Virus record (IMG/VR): IMGVR_UViG_3300024255_000006
Location: 71,243 to 135,242 of that record
Reading direction: 5' to 3' (one strand)
Length of the DNA stretch: 64,000 nucleotides
Source: a virus
The position numbers and the translations under genes were made by a program. Within the stretch, counting starts at the first letter, position 1. Every line of letters begins with the position of its first letter. Positions 39,709 through 45,672 of this stretch are shown here, one piece after another. The notes under the pieces were generated by a model. The model was not told where the DNA came from, did not search any database, and saw nothing but the letters and a program-made list of their open reading frames with translations.

Positions 39709-40115
39709 GCAAGTTTGAAAATAACATGGAAGACGCTTTTGATATCGAAGTACAAGTAGAGGAAAGCAAACCAATCAAACCAAAACCAGAGAAGGTTGAT
39801 AAAGATGACCGCACAAAAGATTATGAATATACAAGAGGAGAACTCTACTCCCTCATAGATCAGGGTCAGGAGGCGGTCAGAGGCGCTTTAGAGGTCGCAC
39901 AGGAGTCAGGGCACCCAAGAGCGTATGAAGTCGCTGTAGCGGCAATGAAGCACGTTGCAGACATGACAGAGAAACTCCAAGACCTGCATAAGAAGATGAA
40001 GGATTTGGACGAAGAAAAGAAAGGTCCATCTAAAGTTACCAACAACGCTATGTTTGTAGGTAGTACATCAGAGTTACAAAAGATGCTGAAGGATATGAGT
40101 GGTGGTAAACGCTAA
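39705..40115 (+). CDS. gp16: Terminase small subunit gp16
   Basis: DYEYTR..L; A.ESGHPRAYEV; TNNAMFVGSTSELQKML. Confidence 0.93.
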   Translation: MSKFENNMEDAFDIEVQVEESKPIKPKPEKVDKDDRTKDYEYTRGELYSLIDQGQEAVRGALEVAQESGHPRAYEVAVAAMKHVADMTEKLQDLHKKMKDLDEEKKGPSKVTNNAMFVGSTSELQKMLKDMSGGKR

Positions 40116-40142
40116 ATAGTCTGGTACACCCTTTTGTTTATC

Positions 40143-40574
40143 ATGAGAACATACGGAGAAATTAAGGATCTTGCCTCTCATGTTTTAGCAGAACAGCAAG
40201 AAGAACAAAAGTTTTGCAAACTGTGTCAGAAACCTGAAACTAGAGAAGAATGCTCCTATGGTCCTAAGGCATGGGACAGATTTGCTGTGCCCGTTCGCTC
40301 AGTGAAGAAAGAGGAACTTGAATTAGATGAAGCAGCCTGGACCAAGAAGGAAGGAAAGAAAAAGTCAGGAGGACTCAACGAAAAAGGTAGGAAGTCGTAT
40401 GAGCGCGAGAACCCAGGAAGCGATCTTAAGGCACCTTCAAAGAAAGTTGGGAACCCTCGTAGAGCAAGCTTTTGTGCGAGAATGAAAGGTATGAAAAAGA
40501 AACTGACCTCCAAGAAAACATCAAGAGATCCTGATTCCCGCATAAACAAATCATTGCGTGCTTGGAACTGCTAA
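40143..40574 (+). CDS. Basic late protein, possible internal head protein (DUF6321-like C-terminus)
   Basis: Late promoter GCTAAATA at 40111-40118; ATG at 40143 (the track start 40134 is probably too early); GGLNEKGRKSYERENPGSDLKAP...RRASFCARM. Confidence 0.6.
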   Translation: MRTYGEIKDLASHVLAEQQEEQKFCKLCQKPETREECSYGPKAWDRFAVPVRSVKKEELELDEAAWTKKEGKKKSGGLNEKGRKSYERENPGSDLKAPSKKVGNPRRASFCARMKGMKKKLTSKKTSRDPDSRINKSLRAWNC

Positions 40575-40842: not shown

Positions 40843-41166
40843 ATGAAGCTATTAGTTTCGTTATTCGCTTCATTATTCCTAGCACTTCCTGTATGGGCAG
40901 TAGATGTACAAATGGGTGCTGGTGGCAACTTAGCATTTGAACCGAATGAGATCACAATCTCTGCGGGCGATACAATTCATTTCATCAATCAAGCACTACC
41001 TCCACATAATATTATTGTTGAGGCACGTCCAGATCTTTCTAGAGAAGCATTACTATTTGCTCCAGGAGAATCGCAGGACGTTGTATTTGCAGACAAAGGG
41101 GACTATAATTTCTTTTGTGGACCTCATCAAGGAGCAGGTATGACTGGCGTAGTCCATGTGGAGTAA
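40843..41166 (+). CDS. petE: Plastocyanin (auxiliary metabolic gene)
   Basis: Signal peptide ending VWA; V.MG..G.L.FEP; copper ligands HN...C.PH.GAGM intact. Confidence 0.96.
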   Translation: MKLLVSLFASLFLALPVWAVDVQMGAGGNLAFEPNEITISAGDTIHFINQALPPHNIIVEARPDLSREALLFAPGESQDVVFADKGDYNFFCGPHQGAGMTGVVHVE

Positions 41167-41356
41167 GAGTAACAATTACATAACCAAAGAACAAGCACAG
41201 GAGATGATTGACGATGCAATACGAAAGCACAATCGTAATGCTGGAATTATTAGTATGTGTGTTGGTTGGGTTGTTCTCGCACTTTTTGCTGAGGGTCTTC
41301 TTAGACTCATTGGAATAATTCCCCCACTATTACCTTGGTTAAAGATACCACTATGA
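41156..41356 (+). CDS. Small membrane protein
   Basis: Hydrophobic C-terminal half (IISMCVGWVVLALFAEGLLRLIG); overlaps the petE stop. Confidence 0.6.
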   Translation: MWSKSNNYITKEQAQEMIDDAIRKHNRNAGIISMCVGWVVLALFAEGLLRLIGIIPPLLPWLKIPL

Positions 41357-41448
41357 TGAGCGGACTATTTGTATTTGCATTTATTACACTAATGGTAATT
41401 ACCATGGAGATAACATGGTCTGTAAAAAATAAAGGAAGATTAAAATGA
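41353..41448 (+). CDS. 31-aa single-pass membrane microprotein (MMSGLFVFAFITLMVITMEITWSVKNKGRLK)
   Basis: Read by hand; ATGA overlaps at both ends; TM helix plus basic tail. Confidence 0.55.
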   Translation: MMSGLFVFAFITLMVITMEITWSVKNKGRLK

Positions 41449-41921
41449 AAGTTGGAATGATTGGTTTAGGTCGTACTGGTGAAGGTATGTCTCGCCGTAT
41501 GATTGAGAAAGGAATTGAAGTCTGGGGTTATAGTAGTACAAACTATGAGAATGCCTGTGGACAATATGAAGCAGGATATATTAGTGGATGTGTAACTTCA
41601 CTGGAATTTCTTGTTCAAGCAGTTAAGTCCGATGGTAAGAAATTTACTAGTGCTGGTAAAGTTCCTGGTATTTTTCAAATCACATGTCCTGAGCAAAAGG
41701 CAGAAGACACTCTAGATGAGTTACTGCCGTTACTCGAAGAGGGTGATATTGTTATTGATTACAGCACCAATGACATCTCAAAATGTAAGGAACTGGAACT
41801 GTATTGTTCCAAGTTAGGTATCTCATATATCTTCTCTGGAGTATATGGAGCAACCCATGCTGTAAATGCATGTTCTAAAATTTTCCAATCGCTATCACCA
41901 GGTAATGCTATCCGAATTTGA
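41445..41921 (+). CDS. Truncated 6-phosphogluconate-dehydrogenase-like protein (NAD(P)-binding domain only)
   Basis: MKVGMIGLGR.G..M...M...G.EV.GY; L.EGDIVID; only 158 aa, with no KMVHNGIEY catalytic segment. Confidence 0.8.
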   Translation: MKVGMIGLGRTGEGMSRRMIEKGIEVWGYSSTNYENACGQYEAGYISGCVTSLEFLVQAVKSDGKKFTSAGKVPGIFQITCPEQKAEDTLDELLPLLEEGDIVIDYSTNDISKCKELELYCSKLGISYIFSGVYGATHAVNACSKIFQSLSPGNAIRI

Positions 41922-42087
41922 TTACGTTGAAGCACCCACCGAAGGTGAAGTTGATAAGTGGGGGTTTACTATCAAACCCACTATCAGTGATAATGAATTG
42001 ATCCTTCGATGTTTAAGAAATGCTCCGTGTGGATCTGATAGGAAACAAGCAATGAAACTAATTAAAATCTACGAGGACAAAATTTAA
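41905..42087 (+). CDS. Hypothetical protein (likely start ATG41905)
   Basis: ORF track 41866..42087; the later ATG gives a short overlap with the gnd-like gene; TAATG coupling to the next ORF. Confidence 0.55.
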   Translation: MLSEFDYVEAPTEGEVDKWGFTIKPTISDNELILRCLRNAPCGSDRKQAMKLIKIYEDKI

Positions 42088-42218
42088 TGACCCTAGCACA
42101 TGTCCTACTTTTCGGATCACTACCATTTATATGTGCCACCGCATATTTCGGGTACAGAAAAGGTGAAAATAACTATTACGAAACTGACGCCTACTCAGGA
42201 AATGGAACAGCGCATTAG
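42087..42218 (+). CDS. ndhP: NdhP-like subunit of photosynthetic complex I (NDH-1L), 43 aa
   Basis: MTLAHVLLFGSLPFICATAYFGYRKGENNYYETDAYSGNGTAH. One TM helix followed by FG....YY.TD.Y.GNG.AH matches the recalled NdhP C-terminus (FGTRNGFYDTDQYHGNGSAH). Not in the ORF track. Confidence 0.88.
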   Translation: MTLAHVLLFGSLPFICATAYFGYRKGENNYYETDAYSGNGTAH

Positions 42219-42414
42219 AATGAGATTTGCATTCGCTATGTCTTCATTCGGACGAATGTTTAAACCTTCAGGTATATCACACGAAATGAGAATGCTCTGC
42301 AAAGACTGGTCTGAAAATTCTAATGAAGATCCACCCAAAAAAGACTTGTATCAAGTTGATCGTTACTTCTTAGAACTCTGGAAAAAAAGAAATGAATCAT
42401 CAGAAGAAAATTAA
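42202..42414 (+). CDS. Hypothetical protein (start 42202 or 42220)
   Basis: The 3' part of the track ORF 42100..42414; its 5' part overlaps ndhP in another frame. Confidence 0.5.
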   Translation: MEQRIRMRFAFAMSSFGRMFKPSGISHEMRMLCKDWSENSNEDPPKKDLYQVDRYFLELWKKRNESSEEN

Positions 42415-42547
42415 AAAGTTAGAGAAAGAAAACATTATGTTGAAACTAGAAAATTTGAAGCTAAAATTGGAACTACATGAATTAAATAAAGAGTGGGTAC
42501 ATCCCAGATCATGCCTCCACAATTCAGATCCTTGGCCAGATTTATAA
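42392..42547 (+). CDS. 51-aa coiled-coil microprotein (MNHQKKIKKLEKENIMLKLENLKLKLELHEL...)
   Basis: Read by hand; leucine heptad pattern; fills the gap between coupled ORFs. Confidence 0.5.
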   Translation: MNHQKKIKKLEKENIMLKLENLKLKLELHELNKEWVHPRSCLHNSDPWPDL

Positions 42548-42549
42548 AA

Positions 42550-42642
42550 ATGAAACCAGAAACTAGTCTTTCAGCAACAATTATATTTGGTTTGATTATA
42601 GGTTTTGTGTCTTGGAGTTTAGTAAATGCTTATCCATTATGA
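42550..42642 (+). CDS. ndhQ: NdhQ-like subunit of NDH-1L (30 aa; 43 aa if started at ATG42511)
   Basis: MKPETSLSATIIFGLIIGFVSWSLVNAYPL aligns without gaps to the recalled NdhQ TM/C-terminus (AISAVLILGFIAGLIWWALHTAY); ATGA overlap with the next ORF. Confidence 0.7.
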   Translation: MKPETSLSATIIFGLIIGFVSWSLVNAYPL

Positions 42643-42800
42643 TGTTACAGTTTGCTAGATTTTGTGGAACAGTATTAAACAACCCATGGGGATGTGGACT
42701 ATTGGCATGGTGCCTAGTCTTCGTTCCCATTATTGGTATGTGGGCAGTCCATACTTATGGTTGGCAACATTGGGAACCTTTTAACAAAGCACATAAATGA
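42639..42800 (+). CDS. Small membrane protein (start likely ATG42639)
   Basis: LLAWCLVFVPIIGMWAVH TM helix; ATGA coupling on both sides. Confidence 0.6.
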   Translation: MMLQFARFCGTVLNNPWGCGLLAWCLVFVPIIGMWAVHTYGWQHWEPFNKAHK

Positions 42801-43006
42801 ATTTACTATTAAGACCTCTTGATAATGCTAACGACCCTGTGTGGTCAGTAATTATCTGTGTGATACTTGGAGTTGCAGGTGCATTATTTGTAGTTGTATA
42901 CATATTAAGACAAGCATTTGCAGAGTTAGAAAATGGGAGCATTGACACCCCCAAGCAGAAAGAGCTGCTACAACTTCCGAGTGACGGAGATCAACCGTGT
43001 CCTTGA
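42797..43006 (+). CDS. Small membrane protein
   Basis: DPVWSVIICVILGVAGALFVVVYIL TM helix. Confidence 0.6.
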   Translation: MNLLLRPLDNANDPVWSVIICVILGVAGALFVVVYILRQAFAELENGSIDTPKQKELLQLPSDGDQPCP

Positions 43007-43391
43007 TGGTGATACTATTGATGTTACTATCGACCTCGGGTTTGATTTATACAAGAAAGAAAGAGTTAGAGTTGCAGGAGTTGATACGCCAGAGAAAAGG
43101 ACGAGAAACCTAGAGGAGAAAGCACTTGGAATCGAAGCAACCAACTGGCTCAAAGAAAAACTGGAAGGTACGTTGGCTGGTGATGATGAGTTGTCTGTTA
43201 GGACTGAACTTGTTGGTGGTACTGGGAAGTATGGGCGTCTTCTGGGTTGGCTTTACATCGGGGATAGCAGCGTGTCCCTCAACGAGCAAATGATTGAGGA
43301 GGGTTATGCTCATGCCTACGACGGAGGAACAAAAAATATGGACCTTGAAGCACTCAGGGAAATCAGAAGGGCGCACGGTACATTAGTATAG
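42933..43391 (+). CDS. Staphylococcal-nuclease (thermonuclease)-like endonuclease
   Basis: RVLDGDTID, R..GVDTPE, KYGRLLG, LNEQMIEEGYA motifs. Confidence 0.9.
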   Translation: MGALTPPSRKSCYNFRVTEINRVLDGDTIDVTIDLGFDLYKKERVRVAGVDTPEKRTRNLEEKALGIEATNWLKEKLEGTLAGDDELSVRTELVGGTGKYGRLLGWLYIGDSSVSLNEQMIEEGYAHAYDGGTKNMDLEALREIRRAHGTLV

Positions 43392-43484: not shown

Positions 43485-43706
43485 ATGCTTGGTCTTTATG
43501 TATTAATCACTTGTTTTATTCTGCTTGTAGCGTATGCAGGTATGGAAGAAACGGTGCGTCTATTCGCATACATTGATCTCGTAATTAGATATCAATGGAT
43601 TAAGTTTAGAATGTTTATGATGAGACGTAAATTAGAACAACAACTTATAAAGGATCTACCTGATTACAACAAACTTATAAAGGAATTAAAAAATGACCAA
43701 CGATAA
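43485..43706 (+). CDS. Hypothetical membrane-anchored protein
   Basis: N-terminal hydrophobic helix; ORF track. Confidence 0.55.
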   Translation: MLGLYVLITCFILLVAYAGMEETVRLFAYIDLVIRYQWIKFRMFMMRRKLEQQLIKDLPDYNKLIKELKNDQR

Positions 43707-43992
43707 GGAACTGTCGGATCTCAAACTTGAGAGAAAAGAATGTCCTAAATGTGGTGCTATTTGGATCAACGGCAAGCATGTTTTTAGTGGTACAGCCGCA
43801 TCATACGACAAGAGTGAACTAGACCTTGCTGGTCTTGTTTGTAATAAACTAGGTGACGAGACATGCATCAATCCATCAAAAGGAATTGAGGGTGGTCAGA
43901 CGTGGGAACGACGTGCTGGTTATATTGAAGGTGCTATTGCCGCAAAGAAAGGAATTATGGAAGATATGCGCGATCAATTTGGAGACCTATAA
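43693..43992 (+). CDS. Hypothetical Cys-containing protein
   Basis: CPKC...GLVCN....CIN; ORF track. Confidence 0.6.
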   Translation: MTNDKELSDLKLERKECPKCGAIWINGKHVFSGTAASYDKSELDLAGLVCNKLGDETCINPSKGIEGGQTWERRAGYIEGAIAAKKGIMEDMRDQFGDL

Positions 43993-43995
43993 ATA
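43988..43995 (+). promoter_or_regulatory. Late promoter TATAAATA for gp17
   Basis: Exact consensus 24 nt upstream of the gp17 start. Confidence 0.85.
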
Positions 43996-44019: not shown

Positions 44020-45672
44020 TTGGCAACTAGTAATGATGTGTACTTGGGTAATCCCAACCTGAAAAAGGCGGGGACCCCAATACAATTTACAAAAAAGCAA
44101 ATTGATGAGTGGATCAAGTGTAAGAACGATCCCATTTACTTTGCGATGAATTATATTAAGATCATCTCGCTTGATGAAGGTTTGGTTCCTTTCAACATGT
44201 ATGATTTTCAGAAAGAAATTCTCAGAGACTTCCACAACAATAGATTTAACATTGCGAAACTTCCTAGACAGACTGGTAAATCAACTACTGTTGTCGCCTA
44301 CCTATTATATTATGCTATCTTTTACGATAGTGTTAATATTGGTATCCTTGCTAACAAGGCTAGTACCGCAAGGGAGCTTCTAGGAAGGTTACAACTTGCA
44401 TACGAAAACTTACCAAAGTGGATGCAGCATGGTATTCTTGTATGGAACAAAGGTAATGTGGAGTTAGAAAATGGATCAAAGATTCTGGCTGCTTCTACAT
44501 CTGCAAGTGCTGTCCGAGGCATGTCGTTTAACATCCTCTTCCTCGATGAGTTTGCGTTCGTTCCAAACCATGTTGCAGAGCAATTCTTTGCCTCTGTTTA
44601 TCCTACTATTACGTCTGGTAAATCAACCAAAGTAATTATCATTTCTACGCCTAACGGCATGAATCACTTCTATAAGATGTGGGAAGATGCTAGTAGAGGT
44701 AGAAATGATTATATTACTAATGAAGTCCACTGGTCTCAAGTTCCTGGAAGGGACTCTAAGTGGAAAGAAGAGACGATTAAGAACACATCTCCAAGACAGT
44801 TTGCACAAGAGTTTGAGTGCGACTTCCTTGGATCTGCTGATACTTTGATTAGTCCAGCAAAACTACAAAATATACCATTCCACGATCCCATACAAAGCAA
44901 TGCAGGACTTGACGTATATACGAGGGCAGAAAAAGATCATGAATACATTGTTACTGTGGATGTTGCCCGAGGAATCGGTGGCGATTATTCTGCTTTCGTC
45001 GTGTTTGATATCACCACTGTCCCGTATAAAATTGTTGCCAAGTACAGAAATAATGAGATTAAGCCTGTACTGTTTCCCTCGGTCATTTTTCAAGTAGCAA
45101 AAGAATATAATAATCCTTATATTTTAGTTGAAGTAAATGATATTGGAGATGGTATTGCTTCCACTCTCAATTATGACCTTGAATATCCTAACGTACTTAT
45201 GTGTGCGATGCGTGGTAGAGCAGGTCAAGTTGTTGGTCAAGGTTTCTCAGGAAACAAAACCCAACTAGGTGTAAAGATGAGCGTGACTGTGAAGAAGATT
45301 GGTTGCGCTAATCTCAAAGCTATTATTGAAGAAGACAAATTAATATTCAATGACTTCCAGATCTTCCAAGAACTTACTACGTTTGTGCAGAAGAAGCAAG
45401 CATGGGAAGCAGACGAAGGATATCATGATGACCTTGTTATGTGTATGGTATTGTTTGCATGGTTAGTCATGCAGGAATACTTTAAGGAGATGACGGACCA
45501 GGATATCAGAAGAAGAATCTATGATGAACAGCGTAATCAAATAGAACAGGACATGGCTCCATTTGGTTTTATTGATGATGGTATGGGTGATGATACCTTC
45601 GTGGACGGAGACGGAACTCTTTGGGAGTATGGAACAACACAGGAAGAAGTCGGATACATGTGGAACTACTAA
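44020..45672 (+). CDS. gp17: Terminase large subunit gp17
   Basis: YLGNPNLK; Walker A PRQTGKST; Walker B LFLDEFAF; nuclease motifs TVDVARG and HDDLVM; TTG start. Confidence 0.97.
   Translation: MATSNDVYLGNPNLKKAGTPIQFTKKQIDEWIKCKNDPIYFAMNYIKIISLDEGLVPFNMYDFQKEILRDFHNNRFNIAKLPRQTGKSTTVVAYLLYYAIFYDSVNIGILANKASTARELLGRLQLAYENLPKWMQHGILVWNKGNVELENGSKILAASTSASAVRGMSFNILFLDEFAFVPNHVAEQFFASVYPTITSGKSTKVIIISTPNGMNHFYKMWEDASRGRNDYITNEVHWSQVPGRDSKWKEETIKNTSPRQFAQEFECDFLGSADTLISPAKLQNIPFHDPIQSNAGLDVYTRAEKDHEYIVTVDVARGIGGDYSAFVVFDITTVPYKIVAKYRNNEIKPVLFPSVIFQVAKEYNNPYILVEVNDIGDGIASTLNYDLEYPNVLMCAMRGRAGQVVGQGFSGNKTQLGVKMSVTVKKIGCANLKAIIEEDKLIFNDFQIFQELTTFVQKKQAWEADEGYHDDLVMCMVLFAWLVMQEYFKEMTDQDIRRRIYDEQRNQIEQDMAPFGFIDDGMGDDTFVDGDGTLWEYGTTQEEVGYMWNY

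What the first reader, a model, noticed from the sequence alone, without database searches (positions are those of the whole stretch)
40843..43006. Putative thylakoid electron-flow cassette: petE, ndhP, ndhQ, a NAD(P)-binding domain and at least four more membrane microproteins
Eleven ORFs overlap or nearly abut, many through ATGA/TAATG junctions. Six are small proteins with a hydrophobic helix (41156, 41353, 42087, 42550, 42639, 42797). The gp16-gp17 interval is an established hyperplastic AMG site in cyanomyoviruses. Inference: a co-transcribed module that stabilises NDH-1L and supplies plastocyanin, favouring cyclic electron flow and ATP over carbon fixation during infection. The unassigned TM peptides may be further unrecognised small subunits or modulators of thylakoid complexes such as b6f, oxidases or NDH.
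Basis: inference. Interest (0 to 1): 0.78.

Follow-up and report, generated by a model that had tools for sequence, protein, structure and literature searches.

The report
Cyanophage petE, ndhP, ndhQ gene island
A marine T4-like cyanophage packs eleven tiny abutting genes between its two DNA-packaging genes, including plastocyanin and copies of NdhP and NdhQ, the two one-helix proteins that hold the host's NDH-1L energy complex together; phage NdhP was known, but no searchable paper mentions a phage NdhQ.

Summary
Between 40843 and 43006 lie eleven same-strand ORFs with no gap above 2 nt, four ATGA junctions and one TAATG junction. All belong to conserved cyanophage families with dN/dS of 0.11-0.5.

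Three gene calls hold:
- petE: Pfam E=1e-20.
- ndhP: PDB NdhP E=4e-4, with 50-64% identical host genes.
- ndhQ (42550-42642, 30 aa): a phage-family profile puts NdhQ chains first in the PDB (E=1e-3). It finds one ORF per genome in five Synechococcus genomes (E 1e-5 to 1e-8), an ORF that one NCBI record names NdhQ. hhalign to that host family gives 97.8%, E=8e-13. All 40 NdhQ-anchored viral contigs also carry ndhP next to it.

The "NAD(P)-binding domain" is a Gnd cut to 158 aa and kept under strong purifying selection.

The four other membrane microproteins are conserved in phages. They have no homologue in five host genomes or in the PDB, so "further thylakoid subunits" is unsupported.

The cassette itself is the published petE/gnd/zwf/endonuclease mobile cassette, here in degraded form.

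The physiological reading (propping up NDH-1L and cyclic flow) is inference from host genetics.

This scan reported the same ndhP and ndhQ pair in at least ten other genomes. I rate it a new member of a known kind, of moderate interest.

The parts
40134..40574 (+). Flanking gene o146 (T4-GC119, DUF6321). It is a listed member of the published mobile cassette and lies outside the finding's coordinates.
   Evidence: Pfam DUF6321 E=4e-23. It is 87% identical to S-MbCM7_093, annotated as similar to T4-GC_119. The cassette is described in PMC3037559.
40843..41166 (+). petE, plastocyanin precursor of 107 aa. It has a hydrophobic N-terminal signal peptide and His, Cys, His, Met copper ligands.
   Evidence: Pfam PF00127 E=1e-20. 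Ligand motifs P-H-N and C-x2-H-x4-M were read from the translation. N-terminal hydropathy is 2.06. It is 84-88% identical to annotated phage PetE.
41156..41356 (+). o66TM: a 66-aa protein with a conserved polar N-terminal half and one C-terminal TM helix. It is found only in phages.
   Evidence: phrog_1096 E=2e-39. 28 distinct homologues, dN/dS 0.23. Atlas clusters are 'Gp7 family', viruses only. No host or PDB match.
41353..41448 (+). o31TM: a 31-aa one-helix microprotein with an invariant F-V-F-x-F core. Its position in the cassette differs between phages.
   Evidence: No PHROG. 36 distinct segment variants in 51 loci; alignment A3 has 29 rows. dN/dS 0.23. No host or PDB match. Position varies.
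41445..41921 (+). Truncated gnd: 158 aa holding the Rossmann N-domain of 6-phosphogluconate dehydrogenase only, with no catalytic C-domain.
   Evidence: Pfam PF03446 E=7e-13, profile positions 1-127 of 161. phrog_3646, a 158-position family, E=2e-100. The 155-158 aa class occurs in 30 loci with dN/dS 0.11. There is no PF00393 anywhere in the record.
41905..42087 (+). o73 (T4-GC47), a soluble small protein. The PHROG match begins at the ATG at 41905 (60 aa); an upstream ATG at 41866 would give 73 aa.
   Evidence: phrog_1201 E=1e-37, matching residues 14-72. dN/dS 0.18. Annotated as T4-GC_47 in S-MbCM7.
42087..42218 (+). ndhP, 43 aa: one TM helix plus the conserved NdhP C-terminal tail.
   Evidence: PDB 6khi_P NdhP E=3.9e-4 with the tail aligned to its last residue. 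68 genome-contig loci, nearly all picocyanobacterial, encode 40-64% identical ORFs. 383 phage records carry it. dN/dS is 0.37 in this frame against 0.81 in the overlapping frame.
42100..42414 (+). o104 (T4-GC1021, phrog_593), filed as a zwf remnant in 2010. Its first 39 codons overlap ndhP in another frame. An internal ATG at 42202 is an alternative start.
   Evidence: phrog_593 E=9e-50. The non-overlapping part has dN/dS 0.19. PMC3037559 lists T4-GC 921+1021 together as Zwf. hhalign to S-SM2 Zwf aligns only residues 4-44.
42392..42547 (+). o51cc: a 51-aa coiled-coil-like soluble protein, present in about a third of related loci.
   Evidence: phrog_2352 E=2e-13. dN/dS 0.22. Found in 31 loci.
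42550..42642 (+). ndhQ, 30 aa: one TM helix ending in W-x-L-x-N-A-Y-P. It is a copy of host NdhQ that lacks the hydrophilic N-terminal 10-20 residues.
   Evidence: Profile A1 puts PDB NdhQ chains in the top three, E=1.1e-3. One ORF per genome in 5 Synechococcus genomes, E 8.6e-9 to 3.5e-5. That host family is named NdhQ in WH 8101. hhalign 97.8%, E=8.4e-13. 40 of 40 ndhQ-anchored loci carry ndhP. The start at 42550 is fixed by stop codons just upstream in many homologues.
42639..42800 (+). o53TM: 53 aa, one TM helix followed by an invariant H-x3-W-x-H-W-x-P-F tail. Found only in phages.
   Evidence: phrog_1184 E=9e-31. Alignment A4 has 39 rows; dN/dS 0.29. No convincing host or PDB match. The Atlas gives unnamed clusters only.
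42797..43006 (+). o69TM: 69 aa with a conserved N-terminus, one strongly hydrophobic helix and an acidic C-terminal tail. Found only in phages.
   Evidence: phrog_814 E=5e-38. Hydropathy 3.03. dN/dS 0.51. No match in 5 host genomes or in the PDB.
42933..43391 (+). Flanking SNase-type endonuclease (T4-GC228), the proposed mobilising gene of the cassette. It closes the gap-free block.
   Evidence: Pfam PF00565 E=4e-12. 96% identical to the S-MbCM7 'endonuclease'. PMC3037559.

Best explanation
This is a degraded copy of the known cyanomyovirus mobile cassette (petE, gnd, zwf, T4-GC119, endonuclease), sitting in the gp16-gp17 hot spot.

Shown:
- It encodes a lumen-targeted plastocyanin precursor.
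- It encodes a stand-alone Gnd Rossmann domain.
- It encodes phage copies of both NDH-1L-specific one-helix subunits, NdhP and an N-terminally shortened NdhQ.
- It also encodes four phage-only one-helix microproteins and three small soluble proteins.
- All are conserved under purifying selection and packed without intergenic space.

Inferred:
- The block is read as one transcript with translational coupling.
- During infection, when host protein synthesis fades, phage NdhP and NdhQ insert into the thylakoid membrane and bind the two faces of host NdhD1.
- This keeps the NdhD1/NdhF1 module attached to the NDH-1M core.
- The respiratory and cyclic-electron-flow form, NDH-1L, therefore persists.
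- Phage plastocyanin keeps the cytochrome b6f to PSI link supplied.
- Together this would sustain proton pumping and ATP supply for phage replication.

The four unassigned microproteins are most likely phage-invented membrane proteins whose targets are unknown.
For: Gene identities:
- petE: Pfam E=1e-20.
- ndhP: PDB NdhP E=3.9e-4, with the C-terminal tail conserved to the last residue. Host ORFs are 40-64% identical.
- ndhQ: the profile puts PDB NdhQ first, E=1.1e-3. It gives a single hit per genome in 5 of 5 Synechococcus genomes. That host family is named NdhQ and itself puts PDB NdhQ first, E=0.028. hhalign gives 97.8%, E=8.4e-13.

Linkage:
- 40 of 40 ndhQ-anchored viral contigs have ndhP within a few hundred bases. 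This includes contigs with the order reversed to Q-P.
- 37 of 79 ndhP loci with enough downstream DNA have ndhQ.
- The order petE-[o66]-[o31]-gnd-[o73]-ndhP-o104-[o51]-[ndhQ]-o53-[o31]-o69-nuclease recurs in about 120 contigs.
- In S-ShM2 the order recurs at a different genome site.

Selection: dN/dS is 0.11-0.5 for every ORF.

Architecture:
- There is no gap above 2 nt from 40843 to 43391.
- There is no excess of sigma-70-like promoters or terminators inside.
- The only late-promoter motif in this region lies at 43988, before gp17.

Function of the host proteins:
- Deleting NdhP or NdhQ breaks about half of NDH-1L down to NDH-1M, and deleting both breaks nearly all of it. Both contact only NdhD1 (PMC11794437).
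- NdhD1, NdhF1, NdhP and NdhQ form the NDH-1L-specific module (PMC7021789).

Context:
- The same record carries CP12.
- The cassette and the site are published (PMC3037559).
Against: - No expression, localisation or activity data exist for any of these ORFs.
- The link to the solved NdhQ is modest (E=1e-3 for a 29-position helix profile). It depends on the picocyanobacterial bridge, whose NdhQ name is an annotation rather than an experiment.
- Phage NdhQ lacks the host N-terminal segment, so it may bind differently or compete with host NdhQ.
- This phage has lost functional gnd and zwf. The NADPH-supply half of the published model is therefore missing from the 70% of the genome held.
- ndhQ is absent from about half of ndhP-bearing phages, so the pair is not obligatory.
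- Co-transcription is inferred only from the packing.
Confidence: 0.6

Rival explanations
1. The phage NdhP and NdhQ copies remodel or inhibit NDH-1 rather than prop it up. For example, the N-terminally shortened NdhQ could displace host NdhQ. That could weaken NDH-1L, or shift NdhD/NdhF partners away from the CO2-uptake forms. The aim would be to redirect electrons rather than preserve cyclic flow.
For: Phage NdhQ is 29-36 aa, whereas the host ORFs run 37-50 aa. The conserved hydrophilic host N-terminus is missing. Phage and host sequences are only about 36-64% identical, so binding properties may differ.
Against: The helix and the C-terminal motifs of both proteins are the best conserved parts and match the host. 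That fits normal docking. Cyanophage auxiliary genes such as psbA and petE are generally read as functional replacements.
Confidence: 0.12
2. The four unassigned TM microproteins (o66, o31, o53, o69) have nothing to do with thylakoid electron flow. They would be ordinary phage membrane proteins, for instance for cell-envelope, lysis-timing or exclusion functions. They sit here only because gp16-gp17 is where cyanomyoviruses accumulate small accessory genes.
For: There is no homologue in five host genomes or among PDB chains. o53 and o69 also occur in gp16-gp17 intervals without ndhP or petE, for example L009, L046, L061, L063 and L082. o31 changes position and o66 is often absent. The Atlas neighbours of o66 are viral only.
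Against: They keep a fixed order relative to ndhP and ndhQ in most contigs. They are joined to ndhQ by ATGA overlaps. o31 and o53 travel with the cassette to another genome site in S-ShM2.
Confidence: 0.5
3. The block is a decaying mobile element. The truncated gnd, the zwf remnant and the micro-ORFs would be relics carried along with petE and the endonuclease, with little or no function of their own.
For: gnd is cut to 158 aa and zwf to a 104-aa remnant. Sullivan et al. described such cassettes as variously degraded. The gene content of the interval is highly mosaic.
Against: Every ORF is under purifying selection. The truncated gnd has dN/dS 0.11, lower than full-length gnd at 0.18. The non-overlapping part of o104 gives 0.19. 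The others give 0.18-0.5. Lengths are conserved, with a 155-158 aa class in 30 loci.
Confidence: 0.05

Closest known systems
Cyanobacterial NdhQ (chain Q of T. elongatus NDH-1L in PDB 6L7O, 6KHI and 6HUM; the 37-50 aa picocyanobacterial ORFs, named NdhQ in Synechococcus WH 8101)
   Same: A single TM helix ending in the motif W-x-L-x-x-A-Y close to the C-terminus. The profile-profile match to the host family is 97.8%, and NdhQ chains are the top PDB hits.
   Different: The phage copy is 29-36 aa and lacks the hydrophilic N-terminal segment. It is encoded by a virus next to ndhP. It is unannotated in GenBank isolates; the features under the match read 'none'. I found no paper that mentions a phage ndhQ.
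Cyanobacterial NdhP and the cyanophage ndhP reported for P-TIM68 and S-SCSM2R
   Same: A 43-aa one-helix protein with the conserved tail ending G-N-G-x-A-H. It is already listed as a cyanophage auxiliary gene.
   Different: It is far commoner than PMC12801897 states: 383 phage records carry it, mostly labelled hypothetical or hidden under zwf or gnd annotations. It lies out of frame inside the 5' end of zwf or of the zwf remnant.
The petE/PTOX/gnd/zwf/T4-GC119/endonuclease mobile cassette of T4-like cyanophages (Sullivan et al. 2010, PMC3037559; hyperplastic region of Millard et al. 2009)
   Same: The same site (gp16-gp17), with the same flanking T4-GC119 and SNase-type endonuclease and the same petE and gnd.
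   Different: Here gnd is cut to its Rossmann domain, zwf to a 104-aa remnant, and PTOX is absent from the interval. That paper left the small ORFs as hypothetical; two of them are ndhP and ndhQ.
6-phosphogluconate dehydrogenase (Gnd), full-length phage form of 339-354 aa
   Same: The N-terminal NAD(P)-binding Rossmann domain with the G-x-G-x-x-G motif.
   Different: The 6PGD catalytic domain is missing entirely. A 12-residue stretch around the G-T-S-G-G motif is deleted. The Arg after strand 2 (G-Y-R in full-length forms) is Ser here. It cannot be a 6PGDH, yet it is under strong purifying selection.

Membership tests
NdhQ (NDH-1L small subunit) | Sequence homology to experimentally defined NdhQ (PDB chain Q) | tested here: met
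   A profile of 30 phage sequences gives NdhQ chains as the top three PDB hits, E=1.1e-3 to 6e-3. The single sequence gives E=0.45 with NdhQ as the only hit.
NdhQ (NDH-1L small subunit) | Homology to the host (picocyanobacterial) NdhQ gene | tested here: met
   One strong ORF per genome in 5 of 5 Synechococcus genomes. The family is named NdhQ by one NCBI record. hhalign gives 97.8%, E=8.4e-13. The host profile puts PDB NdhQ first, E=0.028.
NdhQ (NDH-1L small subunit) | One TM helix with the C-terminal W-x-L-x-x-A-Y motif | tested here: met
   Hydropathy 2.13. A27 and Y28 are invariant and W22 is at least 90% conserved in A1. The motif aligns with the same residues in chain Q.
NdhQ (NDH-1L small subunit) | Hydrophilic N-terminal extension before the helix (host and T. 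elongatus forms) | tested here: not met
   Phage forms start 5-10 residues before the helix. Stop codons lie just upstream in many homologues, unlike the host alignment A8. This is a shortened variant.
NdhQ (NDH-1L small subunit) | Physical subunit of NDH-1L bound to NdhD1 | not testable with these tools
   Needs blue-native gels, pull-downs or cryo-EM from infected cells.
NdhP (NDH-1L small subunit) | About 40-45 aa, one TM helix and a conserved C-terminal tail homologous to PDB chain P | tested here: met
   6khi_P E=3.9e-4, aligned to the last residue. Hydropathy 1.69. 14 invariant columns in 38 phage sequences.
NdhP (NDH-1L small subunit) | Orthologue present in host genomes | tested here: met
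   68 loci in genome contigs, nearly all picocyanobacterial and including WH7803 and RCC307, at 40-64% identity.
Plastocyanin (PetE) | Cupredoxin fold family with four type-1 copper ligands and a lumenal signal peptide | tested here: met
   PF00127 E=1e-20. His in P-H-N and the C-x2-H-x4-M motif were read from the translation. The N-terminus is hydrophobic, 2.06.
6-phosphogluconate dehydrogenase (Gnd) | N-terminal NAD(P)-binding domain PF03446 | tested here: met
   E=6.9e-13, profile positions 1-127 of 161.
6-phosphogluconate dehydrogenase (Gnd) | C-terminal catalytic 6PGD domain PF00393 | tested here: not met
   The ORF stops at 158 aa. There is no PF00393 match anywhere in the 135-kb record. 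It is not an enzyme of this family.
Glucose-6-phosphate dehydrogenase (Zwf), for o104 | Homology to the Zwf Rossmann and catalytic domains | tested here: not met
   hhalign to S-SM2 Zwf aligns only residues 4-44, which is the stretch that overlaps ndhP. There is no PF02781 in the record. At most it is a remnant, as PMC3037559 lists it.
Cyanophage petE/gnd/zwf mobile cassette (Sullivan 2010) | petE and gnd together with T4-GC119 and an SNase-type endonuclease, in a variable genome site | tested here: met
   o146 is DUF6321/T4-GC119 and nuc152 is SNase/T4-GC228. The same gene order occurs at another site in S-ShM2. PTOX and full-length zwf are absent here.

The most novel reading that the evidence does not exclude
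The phage encodes a complete NDH-1L clamp (NdhP plus NdhQ). At least some of the four phage-invented one-helix proteins translationally coupled to it (o31, o53, o66, o69) would be new viral binding partners of host thylakoid complexes. In addition, ndhP would be truly dual-coded with the N-terminus of zwf or its remnant, so one 120-nt stretch makes two proteins.
Probability: 0.2. Interest if true: 0.75.

Novelty: new member of a known kind. Interest (0 to 1): 0.55.

Why it matters
[quoted passage not shown] Whether cyanophages depend on it during infection is still a hypothesis. A phage that carries both NDH-1L-specific stabilising subunits gives a direct genetic handle: delete or express two genes of 30 and 43 codons and read out NDH-1L integrity, P700 kinetics and burst size.

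The result also corrects the record in two ways:
- ndhP is not rare in cyanophages. It occurs in 383 records but is hidden under a longer overlapping ORF.
- ndhQ is present but unannotated in isolates such as S-MbCM7, ACG-2014f and S-ShM2.

Finally, it flags a conserved set of viral membrane microproteins, and a selected, catalytically dead Gnd domain, as untested players.

Tried and rejected
- Pfam and NCBIfam scans of the microproteins gave only noise.
- Single-sequence PDB searches of o31 and o53 gave nothing.
A narrower alignment, A7, worked.
I reached host genomes through ndhP loci instead.
- The upstream starts for ndhQ (GTG 42493, ATG 42511) are rejected. Many homologues have a stop codon 2-4 codons before the proximal Met, and that stretch is the conserved end of o51cc.
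- o53 gave weak hits (E about 0.05) to a DUF3177 membrane protein about 6 kb from host ndhP in three genomes. The three are orthologues of each other, so this is one weak observation, and I treat it as chance.
- o73 is not a remnant of the gnd C-domain. It also follows full-length gnd in several phages.
- The open frame of o104 across ndhP is not evidence of dual coding by itself. For this phage's NdhP, the amino-acid sequence allows no stop in that frame under any synonymous codon choice.
- The Atlas searches gave only unnamed or viral 'Gp7' clusters.
- The intergenic stretches flanking the block show no significant RNA structure.


Full report
**What the window is.** The stretch lies in a marine Synechococcus T4-like cyanomyovirus (Kyanoviridae). 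The nearest isolate is S-MbCM7 (ACG-2014h), at 84% nucleotide identity over 59% of the interval. The record is an IMG/VR contig of 135 kb, estimated to be 70% complete. The small terminase gp16 ends at 40115 and the large terminase gp17 starts at 44020. The finding therefore sits in the gp16-gp17 interval, a published hot spot for accessory genes (PMC3037559, which cites Millard 2009).

Eleven + strand ORFs fill 40843-43006.
- Read from the sequence, there are four ATGA start/stop overlaps, at 41353, 41445, 42639 and 42797.
- There is one TAATG junction at 42085-42089, and the largest gap is 2 nt.
- The gap-free packing continues through the SNase-type nuclease to 43391.
- The block is bounded by intergenic stretches of 76 nt and 93 nt.

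The ORFs are real genes.
- Nine of the eleven match Pfam or PHROG families.
- The other two (o31TM and the ndhQ candidate) each have 35-36 distinct homologues in viral contigs.
- The nine small ORF families give pairwise dN/dS of 0.18-0.51, and the truncated gnd gives 0.11.

**petE.** Pfam Copper-bind scores E=1e-20. The translation shows the plastocyanin ligand pattern and a hydrophobic N-terminal signal.

**ndhP (42087-42218).**
- The 43-aa product hits T. elongatus NdhP in the PDB at E=3.9e-4, with the C-terminal tail aligned to the final residue.
- A scan of one genome per species with the phage alignment found 68 loci encoding 40-64% identical ORFs. Nearly all are picocyanobacterial, and they include WH7803 and RCC307.
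- tblastn finds the gene in 383 phage records, all cyanophages. Most label it hypothetical or lay it under gnd or zwf annotations.
- This contradicts a 2025 statement that ndhP is uncommon in cyanophages and previously known only from P-TIM68 (PMC12801897).

**ndhQ (42550-42642).** The single sequence gives a weak result: NdhQ is the only PDB hit, at E=0.45. I therefore built the family. Iterated HMM searches over 166 fetched sources (165 loci plus a window slice) gave 47 loci and 36 distinct sequences of 27-35 aa. All end in W-(G/S)-(L/I)-x-x-A-Y. Five results then support the call.
- The profile puts NdhQ chains at ranks 1-3 in the PDB, E=1.1e-3.
- It finds exactly one strong ORF in each of five complete or large marine Synechococcus genomes, E from 8.6e-9 to 3.5e-5 per genome. 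Those ORFs end in the same motif.
- That host family is named 'NADH dehydrogenase subunit NdhQ' in Synechococcus WH 8101. Its own profile puts PDB NdhQ first, E=0.028, aligned over 36 residues including the N-terminal segment.
- Comparing the phage profile with the host profile gives 97.8% probability, E=8.4e-13.
- Forty viral contigs fetched with ndhQ as the anchor all carry ndhP within a few hundred bases. Four of them have the order reversed to o66-Q-P.

The phage protein lacks the hydrophilic N-terminus of the host form. The start at 42550 is fixed by stop codons just upstream in many homologues.

In GenBank isolates the ORF is unannotated. These include S-MbCM7, about 45 ACG-2014f records, S-ShM2, S-RIM14 and S-SSM2. 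A full-text search for NdhQ together with phage returned one paper, where the word occurs only in a reference title.

**The NAD(P)-binding domain (41445-41921).** This is the Rossmann half of phage Gnd: PF03446 E=7e-13, and phrog_3646, a 158-position family.
- Among related loci there are 30 copies of 155-158 aa, 8 of a separate 187-192 aa class, and 31 full-length copies of 339-354 aa.
- The short class has lost 12 residues around the G-T-S-G-G motif and the Arg after strand 2.
- It nevertheless shows dN/dS of 0.11, lower than full-length gnd at 0.18.
- The record has no 6PGD catalytic domain and no zwf, but it does carry CP12.
- It is therefore a selected stand-alone domain, not an enzyme and not a pseudogene.

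**The other microproteins.** o66TM, o31TM, o53TM and o69TM each form a well-conserved phage family.
- Profiles of all four found nothing convincing in the five host genomes.
- They also found nothing among PDB chains, which include the small subunits of PSI, PSII, b6f and NDH-1.
- The Atlas gave unnamed clusters for o53 and virus-only 'Gp7' clusters for o66.
- o53 and o69 also occur in gp16-gp17 intervals that lack ndhP and petE, and o31 changes position between phages.
- They are not borrowed host subunits. Whether they act on thylakoid complexes is open.

**Cassette context.** Gene order is strikingly stable across about 120 contigs: petE-[o66]-[o31]-gnd-[o73]-ndhP-o104-[o51]-[ndhQ]-o53-[o31]-o69-nuclease.
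- In S-ShM2, part of the cassette (petE to o53) sits elsewhere in the genome.
- Sullivan et al. 2010 described this as a mobile cassette of petE, PTOX, gnd, zwf, T4-GC119 and an endonuclease, sometimes degraded. They listed T4-GC1021 (o104 here) with zwf as a remnant.
- The flanking o146 is T4-GC119/DUF6321 and the nuclease is SNase-type.
- My profile comparison of o104 with S-SM2 Zwf aligns only residues 4-44, which is the part that overlaps ndhP. The remnant claim is therefore not independently confirmed beyond that stretch.

**An unexpected feature.** ndhP lies out of frame inside the first 39 codons of o104. In phages with full-length zwf it lies inside the annotated 5' end of zwf. This is probably why gene callers miss it.
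- On the same locus pairs, synonymous divergence in the overlap is 0.21. It is 1.26 in the rest of o104 and 1.47 in o53.
- The ATG at +13 is kept in 41 of 42 distinct sequences.
- This sixfold loss of silent change is the signature of a second constraint, most simply dual coding.
- However, the openness of the second frame is forced by the NdhP amino-acid sequence itself.
- The second frame also shows dN/dS of 0.81 in the overlap. The point is unresolved.

**Mechanism.** The gene content is shown; the physiology is inferred.
- In Synechocystis, loss of NdhP or NdhQ converts about half of NDH-1L to NDH-1M, and loss of both converts nearly all of it. Cyclic-flow activity falls in parallel, and both proteins contact only NdhD1 (PMC11794437).
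- The cryo-EM work describes NdhD1, NdhF1, NdhP and NdhQ as the NDH-1L-specific module (PMC7021789).
- A phage that supplies both helices, together with lumenal plastocyanin, most simply keeps NDH-1L and the b6f-to-PSI link working while host synthesis declines.
- No promoter, terminator or late-promoter motif interrupts the block. This fits one transcript but does not prove it.

**Standing.** This scan's earlier reports describe the same ndhP and ndhQ pairing in at least ten other cyanophage genomes. My tests on this DNA reach the same conclusion independently.

**Verdict.** The known cassette and known ndhP make this a new member of a known kind. The new elements are the unreported phage ndhQ, the hidden abundance of ndhP, the selected dead Gnd domain and the possible dual coding.

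Noticed in passing
window 42100-42218 (ndhP/o104 overlap): Synonymous divergence in ndhP is about six times lower than in the adjacent non-overlapping part of o104 and in o53, measured on the same locus pairs (0.21 against 1.26 and 1.47). The ATG of the overlapping frame is kept in 41 of 42 sequences. This is a dual-coding signature, but the frame's openness is forced by the NdhP sequence itself.
   Followed up: partly
window 41445-41921; loci L091, L092, L125, L128, L130, L133, L141, L101: Besides the 155-158 aa truncated Gnd class (dN/dS 0.11), there is a second, separate truncated class of 187-192 aa (dN/dS 0.33). Gnd may thus have been shortened to its Rossmann domain more than once.
   Followed up: partly
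window 41353-41448; L001:4517-4657; L084:2563-2679: The 25-31 aa o31TM microgene sits in different places in different phages: before gnd, after o53, or after the nuclease just upstream of gp17. It behaves like a mobile microgene within the cassette.
   Followed up: partly
L084 (S-ShM2, NC_015281.1 38339-40330): The petE-gnd-ndhP-o104-ndhQ-o31-o53 block lies next to a 2OG-Fe(II) oxygenase gene and has no gp16 or gp17 in the fetched stretch. ndhP and ndhQ are both unannotated there.
   Followed up: partly
L292 (S-SM2, GU071095.1 173970-174110): In phages with full-length zwf, ndhP overlaps the end of gnd and the annotated first 39 codons of zwf. The recognisable G6PDH Rossmann motif starts only after the overlap, so the annotated zwf start may be too far upstream.
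   Followed up: partly
host loci L234-L238 (alignment A8): Picocyanobacterial NdhQ ORFs have an invariant internal Met directly before the TM helix. Starting there would give a product of about 28 aa, the same size as the phage NdhQ, so the true host start codon may deserve a check.
   Followed up: no
L247-L249 (host DUF3177 gene about 6 kb from host ndhP): The o53TM profile gives weak hits (E about 0.05) to the C-terminal helix region of a 203-206 aa DUF3177 membrane protein in three Synechococcus genomes. The three are orthologues of each other, so this is probably chance.
   Followed up: partly
window 43485-43706: o73b, outside the finding, also has a strong N-terminal hydrophobic helix (hydropathy 2.27). 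It is conserved next to o99 just upstream of gp17 in many contigs.
   Followed up: no
window 43988-43995: The only T4-type late-promoter motif (TATAAATA) in the whole gp16-gp17 interval lies 25 nt before the gp17 start. There is none inside the cassette.
   Followed up: no
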